Shown here: positions 16,184-47,220 of the stretch, one piece after another
How positions within the stretch are numbered: the first letter of the stretch is position 1
Layout: each line of letters opens with the position of its first letter
Origin: Octopus vulgaris
Lineage: Eukaryota
Direction: 5' to 3'
NCBI GenBank assembly: GCA_951406725.2
Contig: OX597824.1
Location: 74,214,001-74,278,000 of the forward strand
Length of the DNA: 64,000 nucleotides
Notes under the pieces: model-generated
Told to the model about the DNA's origin: nothing
Seen by the model: only the letters and a program-made list of their open reading frames with translations
Database searches by the model: none
Program-made: the position numbers and the translations under genes

Positions 16184-17859
16184 CTCTGTCAAATATAATG
16201 CTTATTTATTCACATTGTTTTTAATTAATCATGCATTATCTTGTAATTTTAAGATTTTAATGAGGTAACTGTTTATTTTTAGAATGATATTGTAGGGTTG
16301 ATGTGAGAGGTCATATCTGGCTAGTTTCAACATAAAACAAATACTGTATATACATGTGGATGGGTTATACTTTTTTTTTTTTTAAACCAAGAATTTCAAT
16401 AAAAACCAAGGGTGCGACCTATCCACTTGACATCACAAGGACCTGAAGTAGACAGCAGTATGTCAGTAGTGGAGTTGATTTATCAATTAGACTACTTTCA
16501 TAAAGTCACTTCTGCTACAAAAAAAAAAATAATACAATTAAAAAAAAACACCATTGAAAGGGAAATTGGGAAAATTAATGTTGATTGGTTCTGAGTAATG
16601 CCAGTTGAGGCGGCCGATGCCAGCGCCGCCTCGACTGGCTTCCGTGTTGGTGGCACGTAAAAAGCACCATCCGAATCGTGGCCGAAGCCAGTGCCGCCTT
16701 GACTGGCTTCCGTGCAGATGGCATGTAAAATGCACCAATCCGACCGTGCTAGCATGGAGAACGGACGTTAAACGATGATGATGATGATTAACTGAATGTT
16801 AACATTGAATCAACATCATCATCATCATCATCAATTGATATGCTTTCTTGGGTCAGACAGAATTGGTTGAGGTAGATTTTCTCTAGATGGATACTCTTCC
16901 TGTTGCTTACCCTCACATGACATCAAGAGAATGGTATACCCCCCCCCACACACACACACACATGCACAATTATATGATGGGCTTCTTTCATTTTCTGTCA
17001 ACCAAATTCACTTATAAGGCTTTTGGTCAGCCCGGGGCTGCAGAGAGGACACTTGCTCAAGGTGCCATATGGTGGGGCTGAATCTGAGATAGCATGGTTG
17101 GGAAGCAAGCCACACCTGTAATGGAGTGTGACATTATTAAGATCGAAAGTGATTTTAATAAAATTTCTTATATGTATATCTTTTATTCATGTATCAAAAG
17201 GAACTATAAATTTACCTGTTGATTGTCCAGTCTTCTGTTTAACAGGTGAATGCCAGTTTGGCTTTGTGTCCAAATGTATCCATTAAGCTTACATTATCTC
17301 ACAGGTTTGAGATTTCAATATAATTGCTCATTCTTACTCTGACATTGTAGGGTAGGTGTGAAAGGCAGGACCTGACCAGTTTGAATGTAAAACAGGAAAA
17401 ATATTTTGGCTATGTATCCATTCTGTCATTTATATATCAGTGAAATACTTATTTGATTGAATGTCCACTGGTGAAATACCTGTTCAGCCAAACGCCATCA
17501 GCTGTCTGTCCTGGAGCCATTCCCCCATTTCCAGAAAGCATGTACGCACCAGATCACAGCATGCTCACTTCCTCCCATCCGTCTTCAGATACTGCTGTAT
17601 AGCTGCTCCAACTTGATATAAATCACTTCAGAAATTTGGCTCCACAACAACAGACTTAAAATAGCACCTACCAAATCCACTGTCTGCCTTGATACAAACA
17701 ACATAGAGAGGAAGAGTGAGAGAAAATATCAACTACAACCTTCATATTCAACAACATAAACATAACACACATACTCATGCGCACAGCGTCCGTAAATATG
17801 ATTTGTATACAAAACCTCCTCAACATTCACAACACAAATAGAAGACATTCTGCTTCAAG

Positions 17860-21280: not shown

Positions 21281-21312
21281 CGTTATATGCACTTATATAT
21301 ATACTTTTTAGA

Positions 21313-21680
21313 CGTCATGTGTCGTCAGGAACATGTTTCAAAACAACTTTGAATTTTAAAATTTCATGTTGAAACTTGTCTTTCAGCTGCACGCTGAGAC
21401 AGTAACAAAAGCCTGCACAGACACGTTCCCAGCTTGGGTATAGCAATAAACGAACATGTTGAGACTTGTTTAGTGAAGGAAGGCTTGCACAGACATGTTG
21501 AGACGTGTTTTATGGAAGTGGGGGCTTGCATAGTACAAGTCTGTGCAAGTCCCTGCTGAAAGTAAGAGAACATGTCAAGACTTGTTTATAACTTGGGTGC
21601 TGCGGGGATGTTAGCTGTTTATCTGTTCAGACGTGTCTGGAGCTTGGCTGAAGACAGAACAGGTTGGATCTTGTCTGGAG
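21313..21680. promoter_or_regulatory. Cluster of p53/p63/p73-family response elements (candidate BAX enhancer)
   Basis: 4 perfect and about 13 one-mismatch RRRCWWGYYY half-sites, many with 0-bp spacers, e.g. GAACATGTTG-AGACTTGTTT 21452-21471, AGGCTTGCAC-AGACATGTTG-AGACGTGTTT 21481-21510, GAACATGTCA-AGACTTGTTT 21568-21587. Confidence 0.75.
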
Positions 21681-23273
21681 AAAGCTGAAAGTGAAAGGAA
21701 CGTGCATGCACGAAGTTGTCTTGCTGCTGCTTGGTTGAAGTAAAATTGCGTGTAGGGTAGTTTAAGTTTAAAGAGCTTTGCTGAAATTTGCTTCGCTTGA
21801 CTGAATTATAAAAGGAAAATAAAAAAGGGGGGAAAAAAAGAAAGAAAAAACACTTAACAAACAAAAAGTTGGCTAGATCTTTGTTGAAATGAAAGAACTT
21901 TTGTAAAAGTGTCTAGCTTGGCTGAAGTAAAATCTCATATGAAGACCTGTCTGTAAGATATTGAAAGTTGAAGCTTGTAGAAAGAAGCTTGGTTGTTGTC
22001 ACTTGGGTGAAAACATATCAGTTGGTAGTGTATTGAAGTGAAAGTAGAAAGAGAAAAAAAAAATGTGTATAGCAATGGCTTAAGAAAAGAAAGAAAAAAA
22101 CAACAATTATTGAGATGTTATGAAAAGTGCACACGGAAAATAAAAACTGGTTTGTTCGTAACGAAAAAAAAAATAATAGATCAGCTGTAATGTGCTGTGA
22201 GATGGAAATTGTTTTGGAGACGGCCCAGTCTTCAAGTGAATAATTAATATCCATCCATCATCATTATCACCATCGCAATCATTATCTCTTTCTTCTTCAT
22301 CCAACATCATCCAACTGCCAAACTAGTCCCCTATTTATTTATGTATTCCTTGAATGTCCATTGTACCATGATAAAATCTACACAAGGTAGGAAATTCACA
22401 TTTTTTTTTTATCAATGATTACAAAGCAAAATTATATTTTTTTCTCTCCATAATTTTTCTCTGACATTTTGGTTTTTTTTTTTTTTTTATAAGTAAAGGT
22501 GATATTACTTTGTGATCACTTAATAGCTGAGGCATGATTTACGAGAAAGATGATATTCAATAGAAATATGTTCACAGACATACATTCACCCTTCAAAACC
22601 TCTTCAAACGAACACCCACTCCTTCACACGCACATACACCCACATACTCTTTCTTACTATCTCTCCTATCTTCCTCTCTCCCTCTGTCTTCCTCTCTCTC
22701 TCTCGTACCTACACACGCGCGCTTACATAGCAACACAATATCTTGCAGATGTGGATGGGCTTATAATTGTTAAGAAATGTAAAATGCATAGAAAAAGAAA
22801 GAAAGTATCTTGCGTAGTAGCCCTTGGGCAAGTGCCTTCTAATAGCTCTGGGCTGACCGTAGCTTTGTGAGTGGATTTGGTTGACGGAAACTGAAAGAAG
22901 CCCGTCGTGTATGTGTGTGTGTATACATACATACATACATACACACACACATACTCTTTTACTTGTTTTTGTCATTTGACTGTGGCCATAATGGAGCACT
23001 GCCTTTAGTCGAGCAAACCGACCCCAGGACTTATTCTTTGTAAGCCTAGTACTTTCTTAGTTTTTGTCTACCAGATCCTCTTACAAGGCTTTTGGTTGGC
23101 TACAGTAGAAGGCACTCACCCAAGATGCCATGCAATGGGACTGAACCTGGAACCATGTGTTTGAGAAGCAAATTCCTTAACCTATACCTACACAGTCAAT
23201 ACTACACTTCATCAAAACTCGCATCCCTCCTCTATTCTGACAATGCAACACAACTATTCCAAATATGAGGATT

Positions 23274-28589: not shown

Positions 28590-29215
28590 AAATACTGGTA
28601 TATTCATTGTTGAAATGGATGGGAATATACAGGAAATAGAATAGAATTAACAGAATATTCAGGAATACCTTGTTACAAACTACAGTATCTAAAATAGACA
28701 TGCCTGCATGCACCAGACAGCTACTGTATCCCCTCTGAGCATCAAAAATAGACTCATCCACTTGTGCCAAGTGACGGCAGTATTTCCACCCATCCCATTT
28801 GAACATCTAGAATATATATATAAGGATGGCATAAGGACTACTATGAAGTCACTTGGAATGATTCCAGAAGATATAGAAACCCTTACTTTGGATTGAGTTG
28901 GATGGTGAACAAAGGTGTGGAGTAGAGTGAAAGCATTTGAAGAGGCCAAGATAATGCAAGTAAGACTCAAATGAGATCTAAGGAAGAATGTAACGATCAA
29001 GAAGACAAATGACAATGACCTTTTTGTGTGCACTGTCTGTGACAGACCTCACCTGTCTTTTGCTGGCCTCAAATCTCATCTGCAAACGCATGGAAAACGA
29101 ACCTCCACCAACTATTCTGCCTATATGTCTGTGCACACCTTTGAATGCAGTGTATGCCAGAAGGTCTGCAAATCCAATAAAGGCCTCAAAAGACATTTTA
29201 AGATCCACAAAGAGC
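28590..29215 (+). mobile_element. Decayed RTE-type LINE C-terminal fragment with two C2H2 zinc fingers
   Basis: YKDGIRTTMKSLGMIPEDIETLTLD*VGW*TKVWSRVKAFE then CTVCDRPHLSFAGLKSHLQTH and CSVCQKVCKSNKGLKRHFKIH; in-frame stops. Confidence 0.7.
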
Positions 29216-29504
29216 AGAACTTACAGTTCTTGGTGGTCCAAATTGGAGGTACAATCTATGTGGGTGTCTTTTCAGAACATTGTCTGGTTTAAAAAGCCAC
29301 ATCAGATACCATGATGGTGCTAAGATGCAGGTACAGGAGGTGGTCAAATTCTGCACAAGGAGTAAACAACCACATATATATATATATATATATATATATA
29401 GTAGAGTCCACAGTGATCCGTAGGTAGGAGAGGTGCAGCCAGAGGGTAAATGTCCGAAAGAGAATCCGTAAAGCACGAAAAACGGATGTTAAATGATGAT
29501 AATG

Positions 29505-33734: not shown

Positions 33735-33881
33735 AACCGCCCAGGAAAAACTTAAACAGAGATGATGTGGGCAACCAGGCGCGGTGTTTGTTGAACCAGT
33801 TCATCCATGACAGGATGGAAAATGAAGGCTTCGAAAATCCTCTGCAAGAGTCCAACCTCATCGAACCAGACACACCAACAG
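33735..33881 (+). CDS. BAX: BAX-like gene, first identifiable coding exon (N-terminal/alpha1 region); start exon not identified
   Basis: Poly-T tract + cag acceptor, ag|gtaagt donor; 147 nt, phase 1-1; (E)PPRKNLNRDDVGNQARCLLNQFIHDRMENEGFENPLQESNLIEPDTPT(G); in frame with the BH3 exon. Confidence 0.88.
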
Positions 33882-34227
33882 GTAAGTAACTATCTGTTCA
33901 GTCATAACTCAGCATTAACTTGCTTGTTGTACTTGCTCCTTGTTTCATGCTTTTTTTCTTTTGCAGCCACCCATCTATACAAGTGTAAACTGAATACGAG
34001 CTGCATTGATTTCATCACTCTGGGAAAGCTTACAAACATACACATATATAGTATTATTGGATTGCTACTTATCCCATGTTGTTTCTACAAACATTGATCA
34101 GACATCAACCGCATTTATCTTCTCAGGTTTCAGGAGCTTATTAAGCATGTGGCCACTGTTCCGCATTCCTTAATTAACTTAAGTATACTGCATGTTGATG
34201 TTAAGAATAAAGCACTCAAAACATTCT

Positions 34228-34645
34228 TATTTCTTTAGTGCCCACAAGGGGCCAAACATAGAGGGAACAAACAAGGACAGACAAAGGGATTAAGTCGATT
34301 ATATCGACTCCAGTGCATAACTGGTAATTAATTTATCGACCCCGAAAGGATGAAAGGCAAAGTCGACCTCGGCAGAATTTGAACTCAGAACATAGCAGCA
34401 GATGAAATACCTATTTCTTTACTACCCACAAGGGGCTAAACACAGAGGGGACAAATAAGGACAGACAAATGGATTAAGTCGATTATATCGACCTTAGTAC
34501 ATAACTGGTACTTATTTAATCAACCCCGAAAGAATGAAAGGCAAAGTCGACCTCGGCAGAATTTGAACTCAGAACATAGCAGCAGACGAAATAACGCTAG
34601 GCATTTCGCCCGGCATGCTAACGTTTCTGCCAGCTTGCCGCCTTA
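34228..34645 (-). mobile_element. SINE family B dimer in a BAX intron
   Basis: Head plus duplicated body; TCAAAACATTCT on both flanks. Confidence 0.85.
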
Positions 34646-35565
34646 ACATTCAAAACATTCTGTAGAGTGGTTGGCGTGATGAAGGGTAACAAACTGTAGA
34701 AGCCATTCCAAAGCAGTTACTGAAGCCTGGCACAATTATCTAGCTTGTCAGTCATTCTTAAACTGTCAAGCACATGTCAGCATGGAAAATGAATGTTGAG
34801 TGATGATGATATTAACCCTTTAGCATTCAAATTAATCTGTCGAATGTAAAACTTATTATTCACATTGTTTTGAACGGTTCGACTGGGGTCTGTGAAGCCA
34901 GGAGGCTGCACCAGGCTCCAATCTGATCTGGCAGTGTTTCTACAGCTGGATGCCCTTCCTAACGCCAACCACTCCGAGAGTGCAGTGGGTGCTTTTTACG
35001 TGCCACCGGCACAGGTGCCAGGCGAGGTTGGCAACGGCCACGATCTGTTGGTGCTTTTTACGTGCCACCGGCACGGAGGCCAGTCGAGGCAGTGCTGACA
35101 ACGGCCACGTTCAGATGGTTCTTTTACGTGCCATTCATTATTTTTAGAATGATGTTGCAGGGTAGGTGTGAGAGGACAGATCTGGTCAGATTGAACATAA
35201 AACATTTGGAACACTTGGGCCAGATATGGCCACATTAAATATTAAAGGGTTAGCAGTCATTAAGTTGCGACCATACTGGAATACCACCTTCATGGATTTT
35301 TATTTAGTGAATGTCTAAATTAATGCTTGACATAAAGGGAAGCAACTTGATATATCATTTTACACTGGTATACACACACATACACCCCAAGCTTCTGTAA
35401 AGGACCAAATTCCACATGTATGATATTTGTCAAACCTGGGGTACATCAGTGCTCCAGTGCTGTGTAGTAAGATCAAATGTGGAAACATGTAGTTGTAATA
35501 TGAATTTCCTAACCACATGATTAGACATCATCGTCATAATTTAATGTCTGCCATCCATGCTAGCA

Positions 35566-35585
35566 TATATCTATCTATCTATCTA

Positions 35586-35649
<64 letters not shown>

Positions 35650-35688
35650 CATAGATATATATATATATACATACATACATATACATAG

Positions 35689-35723
<35 letters not shown>

Positions 35724-35803
35724 CATACATACACATACATAGATAAATATATATATACACATACATATATATACACACACACACATACATACATATATAT
35801 ATA
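35566..35803. repeat. Compound microsatellite
   Basis: (CTAT)/(CT)/(AT)/(CATA)n. Confidence 0.95.
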
Positions 35804-35879
35804 AGGGGTAAAGACCCCCTTCGGTCATGAGTGACCATGGGTTTGCACCTATATATATATTCACATGCACACAGACACA

Positions 35880-36097
35880 CAAGAGGGTGTTGAAAAGTTC
35901 CTGGCTTTAAGGTATTGTGAAAGGCCTAGTTGGAGACCCAACCTTTCAAGTTTTTTTTACAAGGCTTAGAAAAACTGGTGGACTGCTGCAATAAGTGTGT
36001 GAATCTGAGAGGGGAATATGTTGAGTAAATTCATAATTAACAGATCCTCCTGTATTTTCTTTTACTCAAATCCAGGAACTTTTCAGCACCAGTTCAT
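35880..36097 (+). mobile_element. Internally deleted mariner element
   Basis: TIR GGTGTTGAAAAGTTCCTGG / CCAGGAACTTTTCAGCACC; internal LEKLVDCCNKCVNLRGEYVE* is a mariner transposase C-terminus. Confidence 0.8.
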
Positions 36098-37898
36098 GTG
36101 TATGCACACACGAACACACATGTATATACACATATATTTAGGTCATGAAGGCGGCAAGCTGGCAGAAATGTTAGCACGCCGGGCGAAATGCGTTGCCGTA
36201 TTTCGTCTGCCGTTACGTTCCGAGTTCAAATTCCACCGAGGTCGACTTTGCCTTTCATCCTTCCGGGGTCAATAAATTAAGTACCAGTTACGCACTGGGG
36301 TCGATGTAATCGACTTAATCCGTTTGTCTGTCCTTGTTTGTCTCCTCTGTGTTTAGCCCCTTGTGGGTAGTAAAGAAATATATATTTAGGTCATTGGTTT
36401 GCCATACTGCCTGGTTTAAATATGACACCACTTGAAGAAACAACATACGAACTGTACGGTCACCAACTCTTCCAGAACTTAGAATTTCCTGGTCGGAGTA
36501 CCAACCTGTACCTAGATAACATTCCGATTCCTCTACAAGTCATGCAGATATCATACAAAGATGATCTGATGACATAATACTTGGTCCCAAAACAGTACTG
36601 TGACACAACTACTTCAAACCTTATATCAGTCACTTAGAAACTACTATCACCTCCACCACCACCACCACCGTTGCTTGTTCCTTAGGTCAAGAGCTTCTCC
36701 AAACCATCTGATGTGGCATACCGGCAGTTTTTTTTTCCAGTATGCCAGGGACCAGTAATATTAATTTATACCAGAAACAATATATATAATGACTGTAATA
36801 AAAGTTGACAATTTTTTTATAACGTTTCTTTTCTAGAAACTTGCCATGTACTGGCGCTGGTCCTCAAACCACCACTTTGAGTGGCACTGCCTGAGGTGAC
36901 TTCGGAATCTATTATAAACTTACAGCCCCCTGCCCCTTTTCCCCTCCATTCCATGCTTATGCTGAAACCTGAGAAGATAAATGCGGTTGATGCTTGATCA
37001 ATGATTGTAGAAACAACATGGGATAAGTAACAATCCAATAATACTATATATGTGTATGTTTGTAAGCTTTCCCAGAGTGATGAAATCAATGCAGCTCATA
37101 TTCAGTTTACACTTGTATAGATGGGTGGCTGCATTAGTCTCACCAGTTGTAGAAGGTTTACAAATGTAGTGGGAGCCTGTACATGGTTGCTAGAACCAGC
37201 AATCAAATACTCCTTGAATCAAACTCCATAGTCTTAAACAAGGAAGGGCACATTAGATAATATAGACCTAAAAACCACTTAAAAGATGAGATGGCCATGG
37301 CCGGAATGCTTTTGATCATAAGTTTGCTCAGTTAAAGTTGGAGTAATCAGCAATGTATTAAAAAGTAAATTTATTAAATATTTTTCAATATATTGTGTAA
37401 TTAGTTAATCCAAACTTTTAAGTGGTTACTCATCTTGCTGGAAATTGCTGCCAATTCTCATTCAAATAACCCTAAGTGTACTGAAAAGGAAGAGAAAAAT
37501 TGGATAATGTAGTACTAGATGTATAGTGCTTGAAAGGAGATTAGGATTGTGGCATTTAATCATAGGTCTGCTCAGCCAGTGCTGACTCATGGCTAAAGAA
37601 TAAGGATAACAACATTAAGTGTCTACTACTTTATGGTTCTATCATTGCTACTTCATCAAGTTCACTAAAATCTATGCTTTTGCTGATGAGGTCTAATAAG
37701 ACCAAAACATGTCGAGAGTTGTCTCCCACACTTGCTGAAATGTTATTAACATATTAGTCATTGATCCAATGTTGACTTTTCATTACCACATTATTCCAAC
37801 ACATAGTCAGAACTTCCTTTAAGGTTTTTATCCATTGTTAGATAGCAGTGACCATTGCCCCGTTCTAACCAGTACAATGTGTTTGTATTTTGATCCAG

Positions 37899-37983
37899 GT
37901 CCACCGATGTCTCAGCTAGAAGAAATAGGACGTGCTCTACGGTGTATTGGTGATGAATTAGATGGAGACCAAAGACTGCAAGA
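37899..37983 (+). CDS. BAX: BAX-like exon, BH3 domain
   Basis: tgatccag acceptor, gtaagt donor; 85 nt, phase 1-2; PPMSQLEEIGRALRCIGDELDGDQRLQ; LRCIGDELD matches human BAX BH3 LKRIGDELD. Confidence 0.95.
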
Positions 37984-38717
37984 GTAAGTGACTCACTTCA
38001 GTAGTATTTGTCTGTTTGTCTCTATCTCTTTTTTTTTCTCTCTCTCTCTCACTCTCATATCTCATTTGCTCACTAGCTTACATCTCTCATCCTATATCTT
38101 CTAGGCTCTCTCTAGCTCTTTCTGTCTATCTGTCTGTCTCTCTCTCTTTGTCTAGTTCATTTCTCTGTCTCTCTGATTTTCACTTTCTCTCTAGCTGTCT
38201 TTTTGTTCTCTAGTTCTCTTTTTTGCTCTTTTGTCTTTATAGCTACCCTTTTTCTCTTTCTTCCTCTCTCCTTTAACTGTATCTCTCTTTACCTCTCTCT
38301 TCCTTCCTTCCTTTCTTTCTTTCTTTCCCGCTCTCTCTCTCTCTCTGGAGGACGTAAATAGTAATTAATTTCTAAATGTACATGAACGAACTAAGTACTG
38401 TATTGCACTCAGTTTTTTTTATTCAGTTCAACCATCAATAATAATGACATGCATTTTGAGTGAGGACACAATTACACTGACACAGGGTTTAATCTGACAT
38501 TTGCTTTATATCAACATCAGTGGGATATGAACTCATAATGCGAAGTACATGAAATACTGCAAAGCGTAGGTTTTCCTTCACTGTACTGATTCTACCAATA
38601 CACTAATACACTACCCTTTCAATACTAATGTGACTGATTGTTTCTAATCTTCACTCAAGGCCTAAAATTTGGGGAAAGGTGGAGGGTTGATTACATCAGC
38701 CCCACGTCCTGAAGGGT

Positions 38718-39130
38718 ACTCTTTTACTTACTTGTTTCAGTCATTTGACTGTGGCCATGCTGGAGCACCGCCTTTAGTCGAGCAAATCGACCCCAGGACT
38801 TATTCTTTGTAAGCCTAGTACTTATTCTATCGGTCTCTTTTGCTGAACCACTAAGTTATGGGGACGTAAACACACCAGTTGGTTGTCAAGTGATGTGGGG
38901 GGGGGGGGGCAAACACAGATACATAAACACACACACACATATATATATATATACACATACATACATATATACAATGAGCTTCTTTCAGTTTCCGTCTACC
39001 AAATCCACTCACAAGGCTTTGGTCGGCCTGAGGCTATAGAAGAAGACACTTGCCAAAGGTGCCACACAGTGGGAATGAACCCGGAACCATGTGGTTGGTA
39101 AGCAAGCTACTTACCACATAGCCACTCCTA
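38718..39130 (-). mobile_element. SINE family A
   Basis: Reverse complement of family A. Confidence 0.85.
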
Positions 39131-39349
39131 CACATCATCATCATCATCATCATCATCGTTTAACGTCCGTTTTCCGCGCTATACTTCATTTTATTAATAG
39201 GATGAAAAGCAAAGTTGACCTCAGTGGAATTTGAACTCAGAAAGCAGAGTCCAATGAAATGGCCACTAAGCATTTTGTCTGAACTGCAAACAATGCTGCC
39301 AGCTGCTTCCTGAATAATAATGATGATGATAACGACGATGACATCAACA

Positions 39350-40058
39350 ACAACAAGAGAACTCAGAGCACAAACCTGTGCCAAGGCAACACCAACGTCC
39401 TCTCAACAATTAGCTGAAGATGATTTTTAAAATGAGAATATCTGAAATAAACAGGGCTGCTCTCACAAAGAGAATACTAAAAATGAACCTAACTACTCTC
39501 AAACGGGAAAAATAATCCAAATATATATATATATATTGAGTGAGAGGTGAAGAGAGAGGAGGTGAAATACTAATACAGTGAAGGAGAAGTAGTGAGAGTA
39601 ATAGCCATGACTGAGAGAGAGTGAGAGGAAGACGAAATGAAGTGGCAAAGAGAGCATCATGAATGAGAAGGGAAGGGGTGATAGATGAATAACGAAGGAA
39701 GGAGTGAAAAAGCCGATAAACAGCGTTTGAAGTGTGTGTGTAAAAGAGAGGTATGTTTGTGTGCATATGTGTGTGTACAATGGAAATAGGATGGTAATGT
39801 TCAATGCTGAAAATGTGTGAGTGTATGTGTGTGCATATACAAGAGAATTATGTAAAACTTTACATATATATGTAAAGTAAAAAAAAATCGGAAAAATAAT
39901 CCAGAATCCTTGTCTGGTATTGGATCGATCACAAAATCTAATGAGACCATGCCAGTCACAAGGCCAAACATCCTTGAAAGTTTCATCCAAATCCATCCAG
40001 TGGTTCTTGAGATATCTTGTCCACTGACAAACAAACAAAGACAACTGAAAACAATACC
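39350..40058. mobile_element. Non-autonomous dispersed element (Helentron/DINE-like by inference) with internal low-complexity insert
   Basis: Both ends match 46537-46875 in inverted orientation. Confidence 0.6.
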
Positions 40059-40879
40059 AGTGTGCTAATGATTCTGCCAGCTTGCTGCCTTAATAATAAT
40101 AATAATAGTAATAGTGATGATGATGATGTATATGAAATTGAGATGAATACTGCAATGTTAATTTCTAATAATGATAATGATTACTGTATTTAAAAGGTTT
40201 AACAAACCACTCGATGTAACATCAAAATGCTTGGTCCTTCTAATGACCTTTTTTAGATGAGTTTAGTCTCCTCTATGCATTCAAACCAGATTCATGTTTT
40301 CATCCAAACCTATCAGTTTTTATACTGCAGATGTTTAGACTGGACATCAGTCTCACTAATAAGGGTGAAGGGCCTGCAATAGTCAGGGCCAATTTCTTAT
40401 TTTCATTGAAATAAATTATTGGAAGGGAGCAAAAGGGGAATAAAAAAACAAACATAACAAAAGAGATTTTATCGTTTTGGTGAGTCAAGCTTGCCTATCA
40501 CTTGACTGGCCTAATTTTTCCATGTAGTTTGGAATGTGTGTGTACAACAGCTGTTTGTACTACTGTAATGTGGGTTATGCTTTCACTGTCTTGTTTTCTT
40601 TTTTTCTGGTAGTCCTTTAACTCTATTAATTGTACGAGTAATAGTAATAATTATCTTTTCTTCATTAGCCACAAGAGCTTACAGAGATACAATAAACATG
40701 AAGAATGTTAATCAAGGGGTTTGCAAAGATATGCGTGGAGTCAGAGGAAAAAAATTTTTGCAGAAACAGAGAAGTGACAGATGTTGTGTAATGGAAGTGG
40801 AGACAACTTTAAGAATTAATAAGGACTTAAGTAATTACACAGAAATAAATAAAAAAAAAAAAAAGAGAGGATAAACTTT

Positions 40880-41630
40880 TCAATCTCATGGTTTCGGGTT
40901 CAGTCCTTGGGCAAGTGCCTTCTACTATAGCCTCAGGCTGACCAACGCCTTGTGAGTAGATTTAGTTGACAGAAACTCAAAGAAGCCTGTAGTGTATTTG
41001 CATATATCTACATGTGTGTGTCTGTGTTTGTCCCCCACCTCTGCTTGACAACCAGTGGTGGTGTGTTTACGTCCCTGTAATTTAGTGGTTCAGCAAAAAA
41101 GACCAATAGAATAATTGCTAGGCGTAGGAGTGGCTGTGTGGTAAGTAGCTTGCTTATGAACTACATAGTTCCGGGTTCAGTCCCACTGCGTGGCACCTTG
41201 GGTAAGTGTCTTCTACAAAAGCCTTGGGCCGACCAAAGCCTTGTGAGTGGATGTGGTAGACGGAAACTGAAAGAAGCCTGTCGTATATGTATTATATATA
41301 CGTATGTGTGTATGTATATGTTTGTGTATATGTTTGTGTGTCTGTGTTTGTCTCCCCAACATCGGTTGTCAAGCAATGCTGGTGTGCTTACGGTTCGGCA
41401 AAAGAGACTGATAGAATAAGTACTGGGCTTCCAAAGAATAAGTCCTGGGGTCGATGTGCTCGACTAAAGGCGGTGCTCCAGCATGGCCACAGTCAAAATG
41501 ACTGAAACAAGTAAAAGAGTAAAAGAGGCTTAAAAATAACAAGGTTAATTTGTTCGACTGAACTTTTCAAGGCGATGTCCCAGCATGGCCGCAGTCAAAT
41601 GACTGAAACAAGTAAAAGATAAAAGATAAG
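40880..41630 (+). mobile_element. Nested SINE family A copies
   Basis: Younger copy at about 41121-41527 inserted in an older copy whose tail resumes at about 41528. Confidence 0.82.
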
Positions 41631-42869
41631 ATTAAAACTGAAACAAGATATACTGTAAACAATAAAAGAAAAAAGAGGAAGAAAATATATGGAAAACATT
41701 TAGGATTCTCACCCACATATGAGCGAGAAATCATTTGTCAGATCATTTGTCACCCCATCCATGTCTCTACCCACCTGCCATTATTTGCACTACTGTCTGG
41801 TGCAATAAAAGGTGCTAATTAACATTTTCTGCATGAATTATCTCTTATAGTGTGAACCTAATTGTTTTTCATTGATTTGTACTTCCAAGCACAGTACTAC
41901 AGTACTTACTGCAAAAATATGTCATTGTGTTAATAAGGCACTGGTTATTCCTATGTAGGATAGTGAATTTCAATTCACCTTTTTCTTTGCTCCTGTCTTC
42001 ATTATTGTTTTCAGGTTGATGCTCCCCTTTACACATTTTTGCTGTTGTTTATCCCCTCCTTTTGGCCTTTCACTTTTTTTTCCTTTTTCTTCATTAGAGT
42101 TGTAACAAGGATGAAAGGTCTTGAACGCTTGAGGGGTGCAGGTCTCATCCCGTTACATTGAATTATTTGTCAAAGGAAAATGAAGATTTTGAATATCTTT
42201 AACAGCATAAATAATATTTATTTTTTCTGGATTCGCAATAATATATCATCATCATCATTTAACGTCTGTTTTCCATGCTAGCATGGGTTGGACGGTTCGA
42301 CCGGGGTCTGGTAAGCCATGGAGACTGCACCAGGCTCAAGTCTGATTTGGCAGTGTTTCTACAGCTGGATGCCCTTCCTAACACCAACCACTCCGTGAGT
42401 GTAGTGGGTGTTTCTTACGTGCCACCGGCACATTTCCTTCAGGGCGAACCGGTAGCCATTGGGAGCTAGTCACTGTCGTTAAATGGTGTGAACCAAATCC
42501 TGTTTCGCTCCAGCATAGTGTAGCTTCGCTACATGTTGGCTTTCTTGGGAGACCTATGATAACACATCCATTCAATTCGGTGTCCGCTTCGAGAGAGATC
42601 GATACAGTGGGAAATCTTGCTGTTGCTAGTTCTCTGAGCATGCGCATAAGGGAACTTCCAGCGGCGTCCCGGAAGAAATCCAGCTCTGCACATGTGCGCT
42701 GAAGACTTCCAAAATGGCATTACTACAGAGTAAATAGTAATCTGCAGCAAACGTCCATATCTGAAAGTTATTTCTTTATCTGTCACCTGTATTCTTTCCC
42801 TTGATCAGCTCAGGTTCCCATAGAGAGACACCCATGGGTGAGGAATCATCACACTGAATTCATGAATCA

Positions 42870-43032
42870 TATCTCTGAAGAATTTCCTCGCTATCATTTG
42901 CTCTCTTCATGACAGCGTAAAGTTCATTGTTATCAAATGGGTCAGCATCACTGTCATTTGAGGTCAAAAGTAGTGTGAAGCAAGGGGATGTCTTTACACT
43001 AAGTCTCTTCTTATTATACTTCTGTACTGTTC
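42870..43032 (+). mobile_element. RTE-type LINE reverse transcriptase fragment
   Basis: SNGSASLSFEVKSSVKQGDVFTLSLFLLYF resembles the RT motif GVKQGCVLAPTLF. Confidence 0.7.
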
Positions 43033-43040
43033 ATCTAGCT

Positions 43041-43576
43041 CAGTGGTTTCCAAAATGGGCTGTACTGCCCCCTTGGGGGCAGTGGAAAGATCCAGGGGGG
43101 ACATTGAAGAAAAGTAGGATGATAATGGGGCAGCCAAGATGGGGTGATAGATGTAAAATATATATATATATATTTTGATAGGTTAATTAGGTTTAAGTTT
43201 TATGGATCTTTACCTTTTGACCTACAGATTTAAAAAATAATTTTTTGTAACTAAGCACTTTCAAACTTCGGACACTGGTAGAATGTGGCATATAAAATAT
43301 CTTTTACTGTTAGCATTTTTGAGAAAAACTTATATTCACAAAGTTATTTCATGTTAAAGTTCTCGTATTTCGGTAATTTCAACCAATCAATGACGTGTAT
43401 TTCAGCTGAATAAAATTACAAAAAGGTAAAGATCCAGTTTTATTTGTGAAATACAGTTGTTTTGAATTTGCTGCAGAAAGTGGTCTATATTTGCAGTGGG
43501 TGGGGGTGAAGGGGTATCTAGGAATGTGTCATTGATGCCAAGGGGGCAGCAGCCTGCAAAAGTTTGGGAACTACTG
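43041..43576. mobile_element. hAT (Charlie-like) MITE
   Basis: CAGTGGTTTCCAAA / TTTGGGAACTACTG TIR; exact 8-bp TSD ATCTAGCT. Confidence 0.88.
43204..43435. mobile_element. GGATCT-TIR MITE nested in the hAT MITE
   Basis: GGATCTTTACCTTTT TIR; exact 8-bp TSD AGTTTTAT. Confidence 0.88.
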
Positions 43577-44045
43577 ATCTAGCTGATGTAAATGAAAACC
43601 TGCTTCGCATTTAGATCTAAAAACCAGGTGTTCTTAGATCTAAGTGTGTTCTAAAAGGTGTTCTTTAGATCTAAGAACCAGAAGACAATCCTTGTTGAAG
43701 TATATAATATCAATGAATGCCAGTATATGTTTGACAATGTGTGTGTGTGCCCTGATTTTGACATTATGTGATGGTAGCAAATAAGCATTGCTGTCATATA
43801 AGTGATGTTCCTTCCAGTCTTACATGAAAAAACATGTTTAGCTATGAAAAAAATATAATCTTACTTGGAACTGGTTGAGTGTTGGTGACAGGAGAGGCAT
43901 CCAGCAGTAGTACAAAAATCTGCTTCATAATTTCTGTGTGTCCCATGCAAGTATGGAAAAGTGGACATTAAATGATGCTGATTATGTTAAGGAATGCATT
44001 TTCTGATGTCTGATTTAATCTCGATTTTCCATTATTCTCTTACAG

Positions 44046-44178
44046 TTTGGTATCAAGGATAGAGCCTGAAGATATTCCCAATACATTTCTCAATGTTGCC
44101 AGTGCTATTGTCTCTGTAAACCTTACTTGGGATATAGTGGTTCGGTTCTTTTACTTTGCCTACAAAATGGCCATCAAG
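44046..44178 (+). CDS. BAX: BAX-like exon, alpha3-alpha5 with atypical BH1
   Basis: ctcttacag acceptor, aag|gtgagt donor; 133 nt, phase 2-0; LVSRIEPEDIPNTFLNVASAIVSVNLTWDIVVRFFYFAYKMAIK aligns to BAX FFRVAADMFSDGNFNWGRVVALFYFASKLVLK. Confidence 0.93.
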
Positions 44179-44205
44179 GTGAGTTCTAACAACTGCTTTA
44201 TAGTT

Positions 44206-44284
44206 CTATGTTTAAGAGATGAGGAATTATGTACATTATTTACATCCGACAGATATTTGTCCTCATCTTGTTTGTTGTTAACAC
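44206..44284 (-). mobile_element. Retroposed 3' fragment of the hammerhead SINE in a BAX intron
   Basis: Near-identical to 60602-60680; TSD TTTATAGTT at 44197-44205 and 44285-44293. Confidence 0.8.
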
Positions 44285-44553
44285 TTTATAGTTTTTTTTC
44301 TTTTTGCTTTAAACCTTGCTCCATTTGGCAGAGGGTCAGTTATGTTCTGAATTCAAATTGCTTGGAAGTCAACTTTGCCTTTTATCCTTTTGGGATCGAT
44401 AAATTAAGTAGGGGTTGTTGTAGCCAACTAGCCCCATTCTCCCCAAAATTTCAGACTTTGTGCCTATAGTAGAAAGGATTGTTTTTGTTATGTGCTTTTT
44501 CTTTGTTTCCCATGCTGAATGTTAAAACCTTTTTTTCTTTTTATATATTTCAG

Positions 44554-44652
44554 GCATTGGACCGGATTCCTTTAATCCGAGCCATCATCAACTTAGTTAT
44601 TAATTTTATAGTAGACAATCTTGCTGATTGGATTCTATCTCGAGGTGGATGG
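44554..44652 (+). CDS. BAX: BAX-like exon, alpha6 to BH2
   Basis: tttcag acceptor, tgg|gtgagt donor; 99 nt, phase 0-0; ALDRIPLIRAIINLVINFIVDNLADWILSRGGW; intron after GGW is the conserved Bcl-2 family position. Confidence 0.95.
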
Positions 44653-44709
44653 GTGAGTAAATATTTTAGAATTTTTTGGTAAAATTCAATTGGGGAGAGA
44701 TAATTAGTT

Positions 44710-45900
44710 CCCTGATGTCTTCCATGGTCTCCCTCTTCTGCAGATTCCACTAACTCGCAGTGCTTGGCATTCCGTTATGTGGCAGTTGTCCTCTAGAAGT
44801 CTTTGCTAATTTTCTGCATTCAAGGCCCATGACTTGCTACCTTACAGTATCACTGTTCTAACACAAACATCATACATTACTATGAAGTAAAAGACCTTTG
44901 TTGCCAGTAATTAACTTTTCCCAACCTGTTCTTACCCTGGCTTCAGCAGTTTATAAACAAGCAACTCTCCTGCTACTAAAGTCACATAGGTAATAGAAGC
45001 TATTAACTACATCTAGTCTGTCTGCCAGTATTTACTCCAGCTGTATCAGGGCCAAATATTCTACCTGTTTTATTTTCAAGTTAACCACATCATCCCTCTC
45101 ATTACTACCCTACAATGTCATTCTAAAAATAAACAATCATGTCATTTGAAATCTCACAGTTATGAGATCATCATCATCATCATCGTTTAACGTCCGCTTT
45201 CCATGGTAGCATGGGTTGGATGATTTGACTGAGGTCTGGCAAACCAGATGGCTGCACCAGACTCCAGTCTGATCTGGCAGAGTTTCTACAGCTGGATGCC
45301 CTTCCTAACGCCAACCACTCCGAGAGTGTAGTGGGTGCTTTTAAATGCCACCGGCACGAGGGCCAGTCAGGTGATACTGGCAACGGCCACACTCAGATGG
45401 TGCTTTTTATGTACCACCTGCACAGGAGCCAGTCCAGCGGCGCTGGTAACGTCCTCTCAAAACAGTCTGTATAAATAAGCATTACATTTGGCAGAGTAAT
45501 CTGAATGTTAAAGGGTTAAGAGAATCTATTTCTAATGTGTTCACGGTACATATTGCTCCAGTGCATCTGCCACAGGCAAAACACCTTCTCTGTTAGCCTG
45601 CCTGTGATTCCACTAAATTTCTTACCTGTCCAATGGGTACAGAACTTTTCTGCATTTTGAGCAAGGCAGTTTCCTTGACTACACCAGGGTTCTGTTTCCT
45701 TTCCTCCTTCCTAGCACTTTGAGTTTACCTTAAGCCCCTTAATTCTAGATTTAGTTGCCATGCCTGGAATTTCTTTTCTAATTCTGCTATAGAACTAGAT
45801 TACCAACATATAGGAGTGCTCAAGGACACTCACTCTTGAAAGTTCACTGTGATAGCCTATAGGACTGATGAATAGACGATATGAGAAATGAGTCTTAATG
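44710..45900 (-). mobile_element. Decayed RTE-type LINE RT fragment, interrupted by a MITE and a family C copy (about 45045-45520)
   Basis: Minus-strand FKSECP*ALLYVGNLV (cf. PWELLYADDLV), AELEKKFQAWQLNLELRGLKVN and MYDVCVRTVIL*GSKSWAL. Confidence 0.65.
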
Positions 45901-46536
45901 GACCCCTGTCTTCATGCTGAAAAAATTTTACTTAGATGTTAGAGGTGGGGAGACCTTAGCTGTTTCTTGGCAATACATACCAATACATACATCTAAGTAA
46001 AAAATTTTCAGGGGCCCTTAAAATACTATTGTGCATGCCCAATTTACTATTTCATTACATGGAACCTGGCTGAAAGGAATGAGGACAGAAACATTCCTCT
46101 TTGGTAAAGCTCTCATCGACTTTTTCAAGTTTCACTTGAAAAGGAGAGTGAGGTGCAACCCTTGAATGAATTTATGAAAAGGTGGGTGAAAGTTACACAA
46201 ATAGCAAGAGTGGATGGTACCACTCTAAGTGTAGAGTTGTGAGTCGGAAGAAAGGAGATGGAGAGGGCTCCCGTACTTGGTATTCAGAGTGATCTTGGAT
46301 GGTGGGGTTCTTTAATTATCCCTAGAGGTCCTCCTGAATCAAGGGAATTCCTCATCACGATCCTTTTTTTCTAGTGTCATATACTAAGTATACTTCCCTT
46401 CTAATGTTTATCATGTATACTCCTTATTTTATCATTCCATTATATGTAAACCTCCACACTTTATGTCTGTCTTTGTATTGTCCCCTTCATCCTTCACCCT
46501 GGTGGCGAATAAATGAAATCATTACTAATATTATTA

Positions 46537-46875
46537 TTACCTCTGCCTTGTTTGTTTGTTTGTCCGTGAACAAGATATCTCAAGAACCACTGGATGGATT
46601 CAGATGAAACTTTCAGGGATGTTTGACCTAATGACTGGCATGAGCTAATTAGATTTTGGGATCAATCTGGTTCCGGACAAGGACTCTGAATTATTTTTCC
46701 TGTTTTTTTTTACTTAATTTTTAAGAGCAGTTGGGTTCATTTTTAGTATTCTCATTTGTGAGAGCAGTCGAGTTTATTTCAGATATTCTCATTTTAAAAA
46801 TCATCTCTGGCTAATCGTTGAGAGGATGTTAGTGTTGCCTTGGTGGAGGCTTGCGCTATCTGAGTGTTCTTGTTA
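46537..46875. mobile_element. Same family as 39350-40058, inverted orientation
   Basis: CAAGATATCTCAAGAACCACTGGATGGATT and ATATTCTCATTTTAAAAATCATC blocks are reverse complements of the upstream copy. Confidence 0.7.
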
Positions 46876-47109
46876 TTTATTATTATTGTTAAGGCAAAAT
46901 GCTTAACAGCATTTCATCTGATTTTATGTTCTGGGTTCCAATTCCACAAAGGTCAACATTACCTTTCATTCTTTCAGGGTTGATAAAATAAGTATCAGTT
47001 GAGCACTGGGGTTAATTAATTAACAATTTAGTCCCTCTCCCAAAAATTGCTGGCCTCGTTGCCAAAATTTGAAACCAGTAATTATTTTACATTTTCTTTG
47101 TATTTACAG

Positions 47110-47220
47110 GAAGCCATCGTGGAATATTTTGGCACCCCAAAGAGGCAAGCCTTTGGTGTTTTAATAGCCGGTGTTCTTATCAGTGTTGGCGTCTATGCGT
47201 GGAAGAGTTTGGGTGATTAA
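47110..47220 (+). CDS. BAX: BAX-like terminal coding exon, alpha9 transmembrane tail and stop
   Basis: tttacag acceptor; EAIVEYFGTPKRQAFGVLIAGVLISVGVYAWKSLGD* versus human DGLLSYFGTPTWQTVTIFVAGVLTASLTIWKKMG; the YFGTP motif points to BAX rather than BAK or BCL2. Confidence 0.95.
   Translation, partial: EAIVEYFGTPKRQAFGVLIAGVLISVGVYAWKSLGD

What the first reader, a model, noticed from the sequence alone, without database searches (positions are those of the whole stretch)
21313..21955. Dense, helically phased array of p53-family response elements upstream of an invertebrate BAX
Seen: perfect RRRCWWGYYY half-sites at 21329 (GAACATGTTT), 21372 (AAACTTGTCT), 21462 and 21578 (AGACTTGTTT), plus about 13 one-mismatch half-sites (e.g. 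21419, 21452, 21481, 21491, 21501, 21522, 21533, 21543, 21568, 21629, 21640, 21667). Many abut with zero spacer, giving at least 5 full 20-mers and one triple (21481-21510); weaker sites trail to 21952. Assuming about 35% GC, a rough expectation is one perfect half-site per 5 kb. Known: p53 tetramers bind two such decamers with 0-bp spacer, BAX is a classic mammalian p53 target, and CGTG cores are favoured by p63. Inference: a high-occupancy p53/p63 enhancer for this BAX, built by local microduplication. It is not part of any dispersed repeat seen elsewhere in the window.
Basis: partly seen in the sequence, partly recalled or inferred. Interest (0 to 1): 0.9.

Follow-up and report, generated by a model that had tools for sequence, protein, structure and literature searches.

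The report
p53-site cluster inside octopus BAX gene
An octopus cell-death gene (BAX) carries, in its first intron, an unusually dense single-copy cluster of p53-type binding motifs just ahead of a second first exon that is transcribed, and the cluster likely lets the animal's p53-like protein switch on this internal promoter, though binding is untested.

Summary
The cluster is real. It has 4 perfect and 13 one-mismatch RRRCWWGYYY half-sites in 21313-21955 and 7 abutting pairs; 0 of 2000 dinucleotide shuffles reach this. It is single-copy.

Two corrections. (1) It is not simply upstream of BAX. It lies in a 66-kb first intron, 54 kb downstream of a CpG-rich first exon, and 460-800 bp ahead of an alternative first exon that an RNA contig shows spliced to exon 2. 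This is the MDM2-P2 layout. (2) Helical phasing holds only within abutting blocks.

The genome's one detected p53-family gene is p63-like. It keeps the DNA-reading motifs and lacks the cooperativity salt bridge. Best reading (0.7): a p63/p53-bound enhancer of an internal BAX promoter.

Against: no binding data. Conservation is untestable here, and one core is mutated in a relative. A similar array on contig 9 has no gene detected nearby. Oyster Bax did not respond to a p53 inhibitor in hemocytes.

Side finding: this BAX has lost the BH1 Gly-Arg pair (3 of 38 homologues), two positions where human mutants are oligomerisation-deficient.

The parts
21329..21676 (.). Core cluster: 18 p53-type half-sites (4 perfect, 12 with one mismatch, 2 with two) covering 180 of 348 bp
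21452..21471 (.). Zero-spacer 20-mer, 1 mismatch (CATG + CTTG cores)
21481..21510 (.). Triple abutting half-sites; 20 of 26 bases match a LINE 3'-end hairpin motif, but the flanks do not
21522..21552 (.). Second triple (1-bp spacer); its outer half-sites are inverted copies giving a 17-bp stem; inverted relative to 21484-21498
21568..21587 (.). Zero-spacer 20-mer, 1 mismatch (CATG + CTTG cores)
21629..21676 (.). Two weaker pairs (1-bp and 0-bp spacer)
22135..22386 (+). Alternative first exon of BAX. The 5' end is only the end of a contig (depth 106). ATG at 22341; donor GT at 22387; spliced to 33735
   Evidence: X4 record 15 and its loose end; X13 record 9 stops at 22386; 15 of 15 aa identical to annotated isoforms P0003 and P0006
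17798..17924 (+). Another annotated alternative first coding exon (isoform X1 of two Octopus species); not checked with RNA here
33735..33881 (+). BAX shared exon 2
37899..37983 (+). BAX exon 3 (BH3)
44046..44178 (+). BAX exon 4 (BH1, reads TWDI in place of NWGR)
44554..44652 (+). BAX exon 5 (BH2)
47110..47220 (+). BAX last coding exon (membrane anchor, stop)

Best explanation
This single-copy cluster of p53-type half-sites lies 460-800 bp ahead of a spliced alternative first exon of octopus BAX and is likely a binding platform through which the p63-like protein activates an internal BAX promoter. SHOWN: the sites; their excess over chance; the two-promoter gene layout (CpG-rich first exon 54 kb upstream with no cluster; second first exon in intron 1); splicing of the internal exon to exon 2; a p63-like gene with conserved DNA-reading motifs and without the cooperativity residues. 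INFERRED: up to about 6-7 tetramers could dock on the abutting pairs. Many medium-strength sites would give avidity that one site cannot give a non-cooperative DNA-binding domain. Stress would then raise transcription from the internal promoter while the upstream promoter supplies basal BAX, as with MDM2 P1/P2. The cluster probably grew by short direct and inverted duplications whose spacers then drifted while the sites were kept.
For: Excess over shuffles and over 600 kb of background. Among the 22 distinct loci found genome-wide by a two-pair pattern (96 matches, 28 for the reversed control), I scored 18 of the 21 others plus 2 extra loci. This one has the most distinct half-sites (15), against 9 for the next; one plain tandem repeat has a higher raw count (19, 4 distinct). 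It sits at the first exon of BAX, a textbook p53 target whose mammalian gene has an intron-1 element (PMC5511239 passages and reference titles; PMC4039150 passages). p53 sites in intron 1 driving alternative initiation are known from MDM2. An RNA contig joins 22386 to exon 2; summed contig depth steps 3 -> 11 -> 106 towards 22135 (a weak hint only). Sites are more alike than the consensus demands while their flanks are at chance. The octopus p63-like protein keeps KETKSTTW, FMCLGSCVGGPNRRP and VRICACPGRDRK, aligned to p63. It has Ala-Thr where human p53 has the E180/R181 cooperativity bridge (PMC8901663 passages), and human BAX activation depends on that cooperativity (PMC3744428 abstract and passages). 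Oyster p53 activated an oyster Bax promoter reporter (PMC5550854 section 11). In run X5 the array diverges less than the downstream exon region (3 of 403 against 14 of 429, p=0.013).
Against: No binding, reporter or stress-expression data. No pair is a perfect 20-mer, and 14 of 18 cores are not CATG; non-CATG cores are lower-affinity and more cooperativity-dependent in human p53. Conservation has little power: 3 substitutions fall in 21329-21676 across the laid runs, 1 in a core (C>T at 21332 in organism D) and 2 in spacers. The lower divergence seen in X5 is not significant in X12 (p=0.36) or X13 (p=0.59). A comparable array (13 half-sites, 7 pairs) on contig 9 lies among transposon remnants, with no host-gene domain in 140 of 293 ORFs scanned over 90 kb, so such arrays can occur away from detectable genes. 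No cluster was found near the p63-like gene, a SWIB-domain locus or another Bcl-2-family locus. In human cells one site suffices and clusters add no predictive power (PMC4937571 passages). Oyster Bax timing was mostly unchanged by a p53 inhibitor in hemocytes. The two-pair pattern was tuned on this array after seeing it.
Confidence: 0.7

Rival explanations
1. A neutral, decayed minisatellite or microduplication that happens to resemble p53 sites; the nearby exon is driven by other factors.
For: Direct and inverted internal repeats exist. The genome holds many tandem repeats with p53-like cores, including a dense 24-bp-unit array on contig 9 with no gene detected. One core is mutated in a close relative.
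Against: Tandem Repeats Finder reports no array here. Block spacings are irregular and the flanks are no more alike than chance while the sites are. 15 of 16 half-sites are distinct. Lying within 1 kb of a BAX first exon would be a coincidence.
Confidence: 0.13
2. The founding unit came from the hairpin at the 3' end of an abundant LINE, which carries three p53-like cores 10 bp apart, and was amplified locally. This is a claim about origin and is compatible with present function.
For: 21483-21508 matches a natural copy at 20 of 26 bases; 12 of 500 consensus-constrained nulls reach this. With motif-selected copies included, 21 of 26 and 5 of 400.
Against: The flanks do not align: 28 of 46, reached by 7 of 200 nulls, and the best hit is out of register. 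nhmmer and blastn find no significant match (best E 0.11 blastn, 1.7 nhmmer). A site preference narrower than my null would give the same likeness.
Confidence: 0.12
3. The sites are bound, but they act on the upstream promoter, or are occupied by a repressive N-terminally truncated isoform, instead of inducing the internal promoter.
For: The cluster is inside intron 1 of the long isoform. Molluscan delta-N forms are named among the homologues (P0021).
Against: The internal exon starts within 0.5-0.8 kb, the upstream one 54 kb away.
Confidence: 0.1
4. The element works as RNA structure in a long 5' leader (or a small-RNA hairpin), not as DNA sites.
For: RNA-guess contigs cover 21358-22133 at low depth. 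The strand folds better than shuffles (z -3.0) with a 17-bp stem at about 21519-21559.
Against: Palindromic half-sites give such folding anyway. The centroid is mostly unpaired. No Rfam match near a gathering score. The stem is short for a pre-miRNA (my knowledge).
Confidence: 0.05

Closest known systems
MDM2 P2: p53-inducible promoter in intron 1 (PMC5511239 passages; PMC4039150 passages)
   Same: Upstream first exon plus an internal first exon in intron 1 preceded by p53-type elements, giving transcripts with a different first exon.
   Different: MDM2 has two elements in about 350 bp; here there are 7 pairs and 18 half-sites. The target is BAX. Inducibility is untested here.
Human/mouse BAX intron-1 p53 element (title in the reference list of PMC5511239; 400-bp intron-1 reporter in PMC4039150; primary paper not read)
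   Same: Orthologous gene family, first intron, same consensus.
   Different: No sequence homology tested or seen. The octopus intron is 66 kb and holds its own first exon, so independent origin is more likely (inference).
p53 'RE clusters' (17 genes in the list of PMC10710088, passages) and the synthetic PG13 reporter (13 repeats)
   Same: Several sites in tandem, reported to add affinity and transactivation.
   Different: Natural, non-periodic, in an invertebrate. A genome-wide human study found no benefit of clusters.
Oyster p53 -> Bak/Bax regulation (PMC5550854 section 11 and passages)
   Same: Mollusc p53-family protein acting on a Bax promoter in a reporter.
   Different: No sites were mapped there ('binding site': 0 occurrences), and Bax did not follow p53 inhibition in hemocytes. 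Most other molluscan BAX-like proteins keep W-G-R; octopus does not.

Membership tests
p53-family response element (cluster) | Two RRRCWWGYYY decamers with 0-bp spacer and intact C/G cores | tested here: met
   2 pairs with 1 mismatch, 5 with <=2, 7 with <=3; none perfect
p53-family response element (cluster) | Excess over compositional chance | tested here: met
   0 of 2000 shuffles for counts of <=1-mismatch sites and of pairs; background at most 5 per 400 bp in 60 stretches
p53-family response element (cluster) | Close to a start site or in the first intron of a transcribed gene | tested here: met
   Spliced first exon 460-800 bp downstream; the true start is not mappable with contigs
p53-family response element (cluster) | A cognate protein with conserved DNA-reading motifs is encoded | tested here: met
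   One p63-like gene found; L1, L3 and H2 motifs align to p63. Human p53 residue numbers are from PMC8901663 and recall
p53-family response element (cluster) | Cores conserved above spacers across species | tested here: inconclusive
   3 substitutions in the span: 1 core, 2 spacers; species about 1% apart
p53-family response element (cluster) | Direct binding and p53-family-dependent transactivation | not testable with these tools
   Needs EMSA, CUT&RUN or a reporter
Helically phased site array | Blocks spaced at multiples of about 10.5 bp | tested here: not met
   Rayleigh p 0.12-0.79 for 11 block starts
Dispersed repeat / transposon copy | Other copies in the genome | tested here: not met
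   1 match (itself) for 21300-21760 and for 21850-22390; the tool cautions that common words are skipped
Minisatellite | Regular head-to-tail period with similar spacers | tested here: not met
   No TRF array; flank identity at chance
BAX subfamily (target gene) | Closest to BAX among Bcl-2 proteins; BH3, BH2 and C-terminal anchor present | tested here: met
   96 bits to BAX against 46 or less to Bcl-xL/Bcl-2/BAK; 47-55% identity to the 14 non-cephalopod lophotrochozoan BAX-like proteins aligned, with one at 44%. No tree was built
BAX subfamily (target gene) | BH1 W-G-R signature | tested here: not met
   Reads W-D-I; 35 of 38 homologues have W-G-R/K

The most novel reading that the evidence does not exclude
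Octopus evolved a natural PG13-like avidity enhancer: a non-cooperative p63-like protein reaches a pro-death target by site number instead of protein-protein cooperativity, and it switches on an internal promoter of a BAX that has lost the BH1 Gly-Arg pair. The p53-BAX link would then be direct in a protostome but built independently, and the induced BAX would not be a conventional pore-former.
Probability: 0.2. Interest if true: 0.78.

Novelty: new variant of a known kind. Interest (0 to 1): 0.52.

Why it matters
Whether p53-family proteins directly transcribe BAX outside vertebrates is unsettled; the one mollusc test I found gave opposite answers in reporter and hemocytes. This locus offers mapped candidate sites, a specific promoter and a specific splice junction, so the question can be tested with one reporter and one qPCR. 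It also allows a test of whether site number replaces the DNA-binding cooperativity that invertebrate p53-family proteins lack. The altered BH1 raises a separate question about how octopods permeabilise mitochondria. If binding fails, the array is only an unusual decayed repeat.

Tried and rejected
Loose core-only genome pattern: 483 matches, mostly CA/TG microsatellites among those listed; useless for ranking. Perfect 20-mers genome-wide: 181 against 83 for the reversed control; dinucleotide bias and repeats confound this, so it is not used as support. A three-pair genome pattern could not be run, so the genome-wide rank rests on one two-pair pattern.

Positive-control hunt: 100 kb upstream of the p63-like exons, 100 kb at a Bcl-2-family locus (C2:134.4 Mb) and 120 kb at a SWIB-domain locus (C19:35.5 Mb, MDM2 identity unverified). 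No cluster; at most 5 half-sites per 400 bp. A host gene near the contig-9 array: only transposon domains and one DUF7083 hit in 140 of 293 ORFs; its uniqueness search was swamped by a flanking repeat (40 of 2111 candidates scored).

Second BAX paralogue: none found, but intron-rich genes are easily missed; one search missed this gene itself. The first exon of isoform P0001 was not found in the window or the 200 kb of flanks. No run was on record as RNA; X4 is treated as RNA because a contig crosses the splice junction. Absence of RNA cover before 21358 is not used as evidence. The sigma-70 scan is irrelevant to a eukaryote. Rfam: nothing near a gathering score. The profile-free search of representatives gave unnamed hits and was not used further.

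Earlier scan notes: none. Not found in print in searches (open-access library only). No supplements were read; those of PMC5550854 and PMC10710088 may list sites that bear on the comparison. PMC10959488, PMC9389742 and PMC10303687 (passages) had nothing on this element.

Full report
OBSERVATION. The four perfect half-sites and all twelve listed one-mismatch sites are at the stated coordinates. With 21943 there are 13 one-mismatch sites in 21313-21955. Zero-spacer pairs number 2, 5 and 7 at <=1, <=2 and <=3 mismatches, and none is perfect. The core is 21329-21676: 18 half-sites covering 180 of 348 bp, with cores CTTG 7, CATG 4, CAAG 2, CGTG/CACG 3 and CCTG/CAGG 2. Shuffles that keep di- or trinucleotides give 2.3-3.4 sites and 0.04-0.07 pairs; none of 2000 reaches 17 or 7 under either scheme. 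The four perfect sites alone are reached by 8 of 2000 trinucleotide shuffles. In 60 10-kb stretches not chosen by motif, the densest 400 bp holds at most 5 sites against 16 here. Phasing exists only as abutment inside blocks; block starts are not periodic. The trailing sites are not beyond chance.

GENE CONTEXT. The exons at 33735-47220 encode a protein identical over those exons to entries named Octopus vulgaris BAX-like, closest to BAX among solved structures. Annotated isoforms differ in their first exon. One begins with a 31-nt coding exon at window position -32836, in CpG-rich DNA (o/e 1.15 against 0.42 for the window) and without a cluster (at most 5 sites per 400 bp). Another begins at ATG 22341, with 15 of 15 residues identical in O. 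bimaculoides. A third is annotated at 17798. A contig of run X4 (depth 106) covers 22135-22386 and continues with the first 30 bases of exon 2. A contig of X13, from another study and organism code, stops at 22386, where the contig of run X5 goes on. Lower-depth X4 contigs reach back to 21358. So the cluster is in the 66-kb first intron of the long form and 460-800 bp ahead of the bulk of the internal first exon. Contigs cannot map a start site.

UNIQUENESS AND RANK. The stretch matches only itself in the genome. A pattern for two good pairs within 5-35 bp gave 96 matches at 22 distinct loci (control 28); the pattern was tuned on this array. Three of the other 21 are visibly perfect tandem repeats and were not fetched. 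Of 18 fetched plus 2 extra, only two approach this density: a plain tandem repeat (19 sites, 4 distinct, none perfect) and a decayed 24-bp-unit array on contig 9 (13 sites, 9 distinct, 7 pairs). No host-gene domain was found within 90 kb of the latter (140 of 293 ORFs scanned). That array shows that such density can occur away from a detectable gene, and it is the main caution.

ORIGIN. Direct repeats of 17-26 bp and one inverted copy link the blocks. The 20-mers share 12.7 of 20 bases on average, against 11.2 in consensus-constrained nulls (0 of 1000), while their 6-bp flanks are at chance (347 of 1000). This fits old duplications with the sites preserved, or convergence on a narrower motif; both imply constraint on the sites (inference). 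A LINE-like element in this genome ends in a hairpin with three p53-like cores 10 bp apart, just after an ORF stop in two of five copies translated; its arms change in pairs between subfamilies. One block matches a natural copy at 20 of 26 bases (12 of 500 nulls), but the flanks do not align, so a LINE seed is possible and unproven.

THE READER PROTEIN. One p53-family locus was found. Its close relative P0012 has DNA-binding, tetramer and SAM domains and aligns to p63 with the L1, L3 and H2 motifs kept. It has Ala-Thr where human p53 has Glu180-Arg181; of 89 homologues, 86 were parsed and none has Glu-Arg. PMC8901663 (passages) states that this bridge underlies cooperative binding and is absent from invertebrate homologues. 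PMC3744428 (abstract and passages) reports that BAX activation and non-CATG sites depend on cooperativity. A cluster of medium sites is therefore a plausible cis solution. This step is inference: other molluscs lack the bridge too, and I could not look at their BAX loci.

CONSERVATION. Only close relatives were reachable. Three substitutions fall in the core span: one hits the C of the first half-site (organism D), two are in spacers; a 4-bp insertion leaves the last half-site intact. Divergence is lower than in the downstream exon region in X5 (p=0.013) but not in X12 or X13. Inconclusive.

KNOWN SYSTEMS. It works like MDM2 P2 in layout and like the mammalian BAX intron-1 element in target (PMC5511239 passages and reference titles; PMC4039150 passages). 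Clusters of elements are known for a minority of human targets (PMC10710088 passages), yet a genome-wide assay found one site sufficient (PMC4937571 passages). In oyster, p53 activated a Bax promoter reporter in HEK293T cells, but Bax timing in hemocytes was mostly unchanged by a p53 inhibitor (PMC5550854 section 11). Membership as a p53-family response element meets the sequence, position and cognate-protein criteria; binding and conservation are open. I found no description of this element in six searches.

COMPLICATION. This BAX reads T-W-D-I where human BAX reads N-W-G-R. 35 of 38 homologues keep W-G-R/K. The three that do not are O. bimaculoides, Argonauta and an unnamed 79%-identical protein. 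Human G108V and R109D are described as oligomerisation-deficient (PMC13046825 passages). No second BAX was detected (low sensitivity). Induction of this gene may therefore not mean classical pore formation.

VERDICT. Best explanation: a p63/p53-bound enhancer of an internal BAX promoter (0.7). It is a new variant of a known kind; interest 0.52.

Noticed in passing
window 44046-44178 (BAX exon 4): The BH1 signature N-W-G-R is replaced by T-W-D-I; shared only with Argonauta and one unnamed close relative among 38 homologues. These are the two positions of human oligomerisation-deficient mutants.
   Followed up: partly
L099:4927-5190 (G000:C9, about 90.727 Mb): Second dense p53-like array: decayed unit of about 24 bp, 13 half-sites, 7 pairs, among transposon remnants; no host gene detected. 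Two further pairs with 1 mismatch lie 27-37 kb away (L166, L167).
   Followed up: partly
window 14841 (minus strand); L012, L021, L042, L103, L105, L106, L118: A LINE-like 3' end carries a conserved hairpin with three p53-like cores 10 bp apart; its arms change in pairs between subfamilies, so it is probably an RNA stem-loop. 10 copies in 664 kb not chosen by motif. In L102 it seeds a tandem array.
   Followed up: partly
window 21957-21975: All four laid runs have about 65 extra bases between two copies of this 19-mer, so this assembly or individual lacks about 84 bp here (table 8).
   Followed up: no
window 22190-22250 and 22354: Short upstream ORFs in the leader of the internal first exon; two in-frame ATGs at 22341 and 22368.
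   Followed up: no
G000:C8:100995558-100997971 and C28:14800765-14801311: 47-bp and 45-bp tandem satellites in which each unit carries a p53-like pair.
   Followed up: no
window 28975-29314: Open frames with C2H2 zinc fingers inside BAX intron 1, probably a transposon remnant.
   Followed up: no
L124, L126 (G000:C19, about 35.54-35.55 Mb): Two SWIB/MDM2-domain exons 15 kb apart, of unverified identity; no p53-site cluster in 120 kb.
   Followed up: partly
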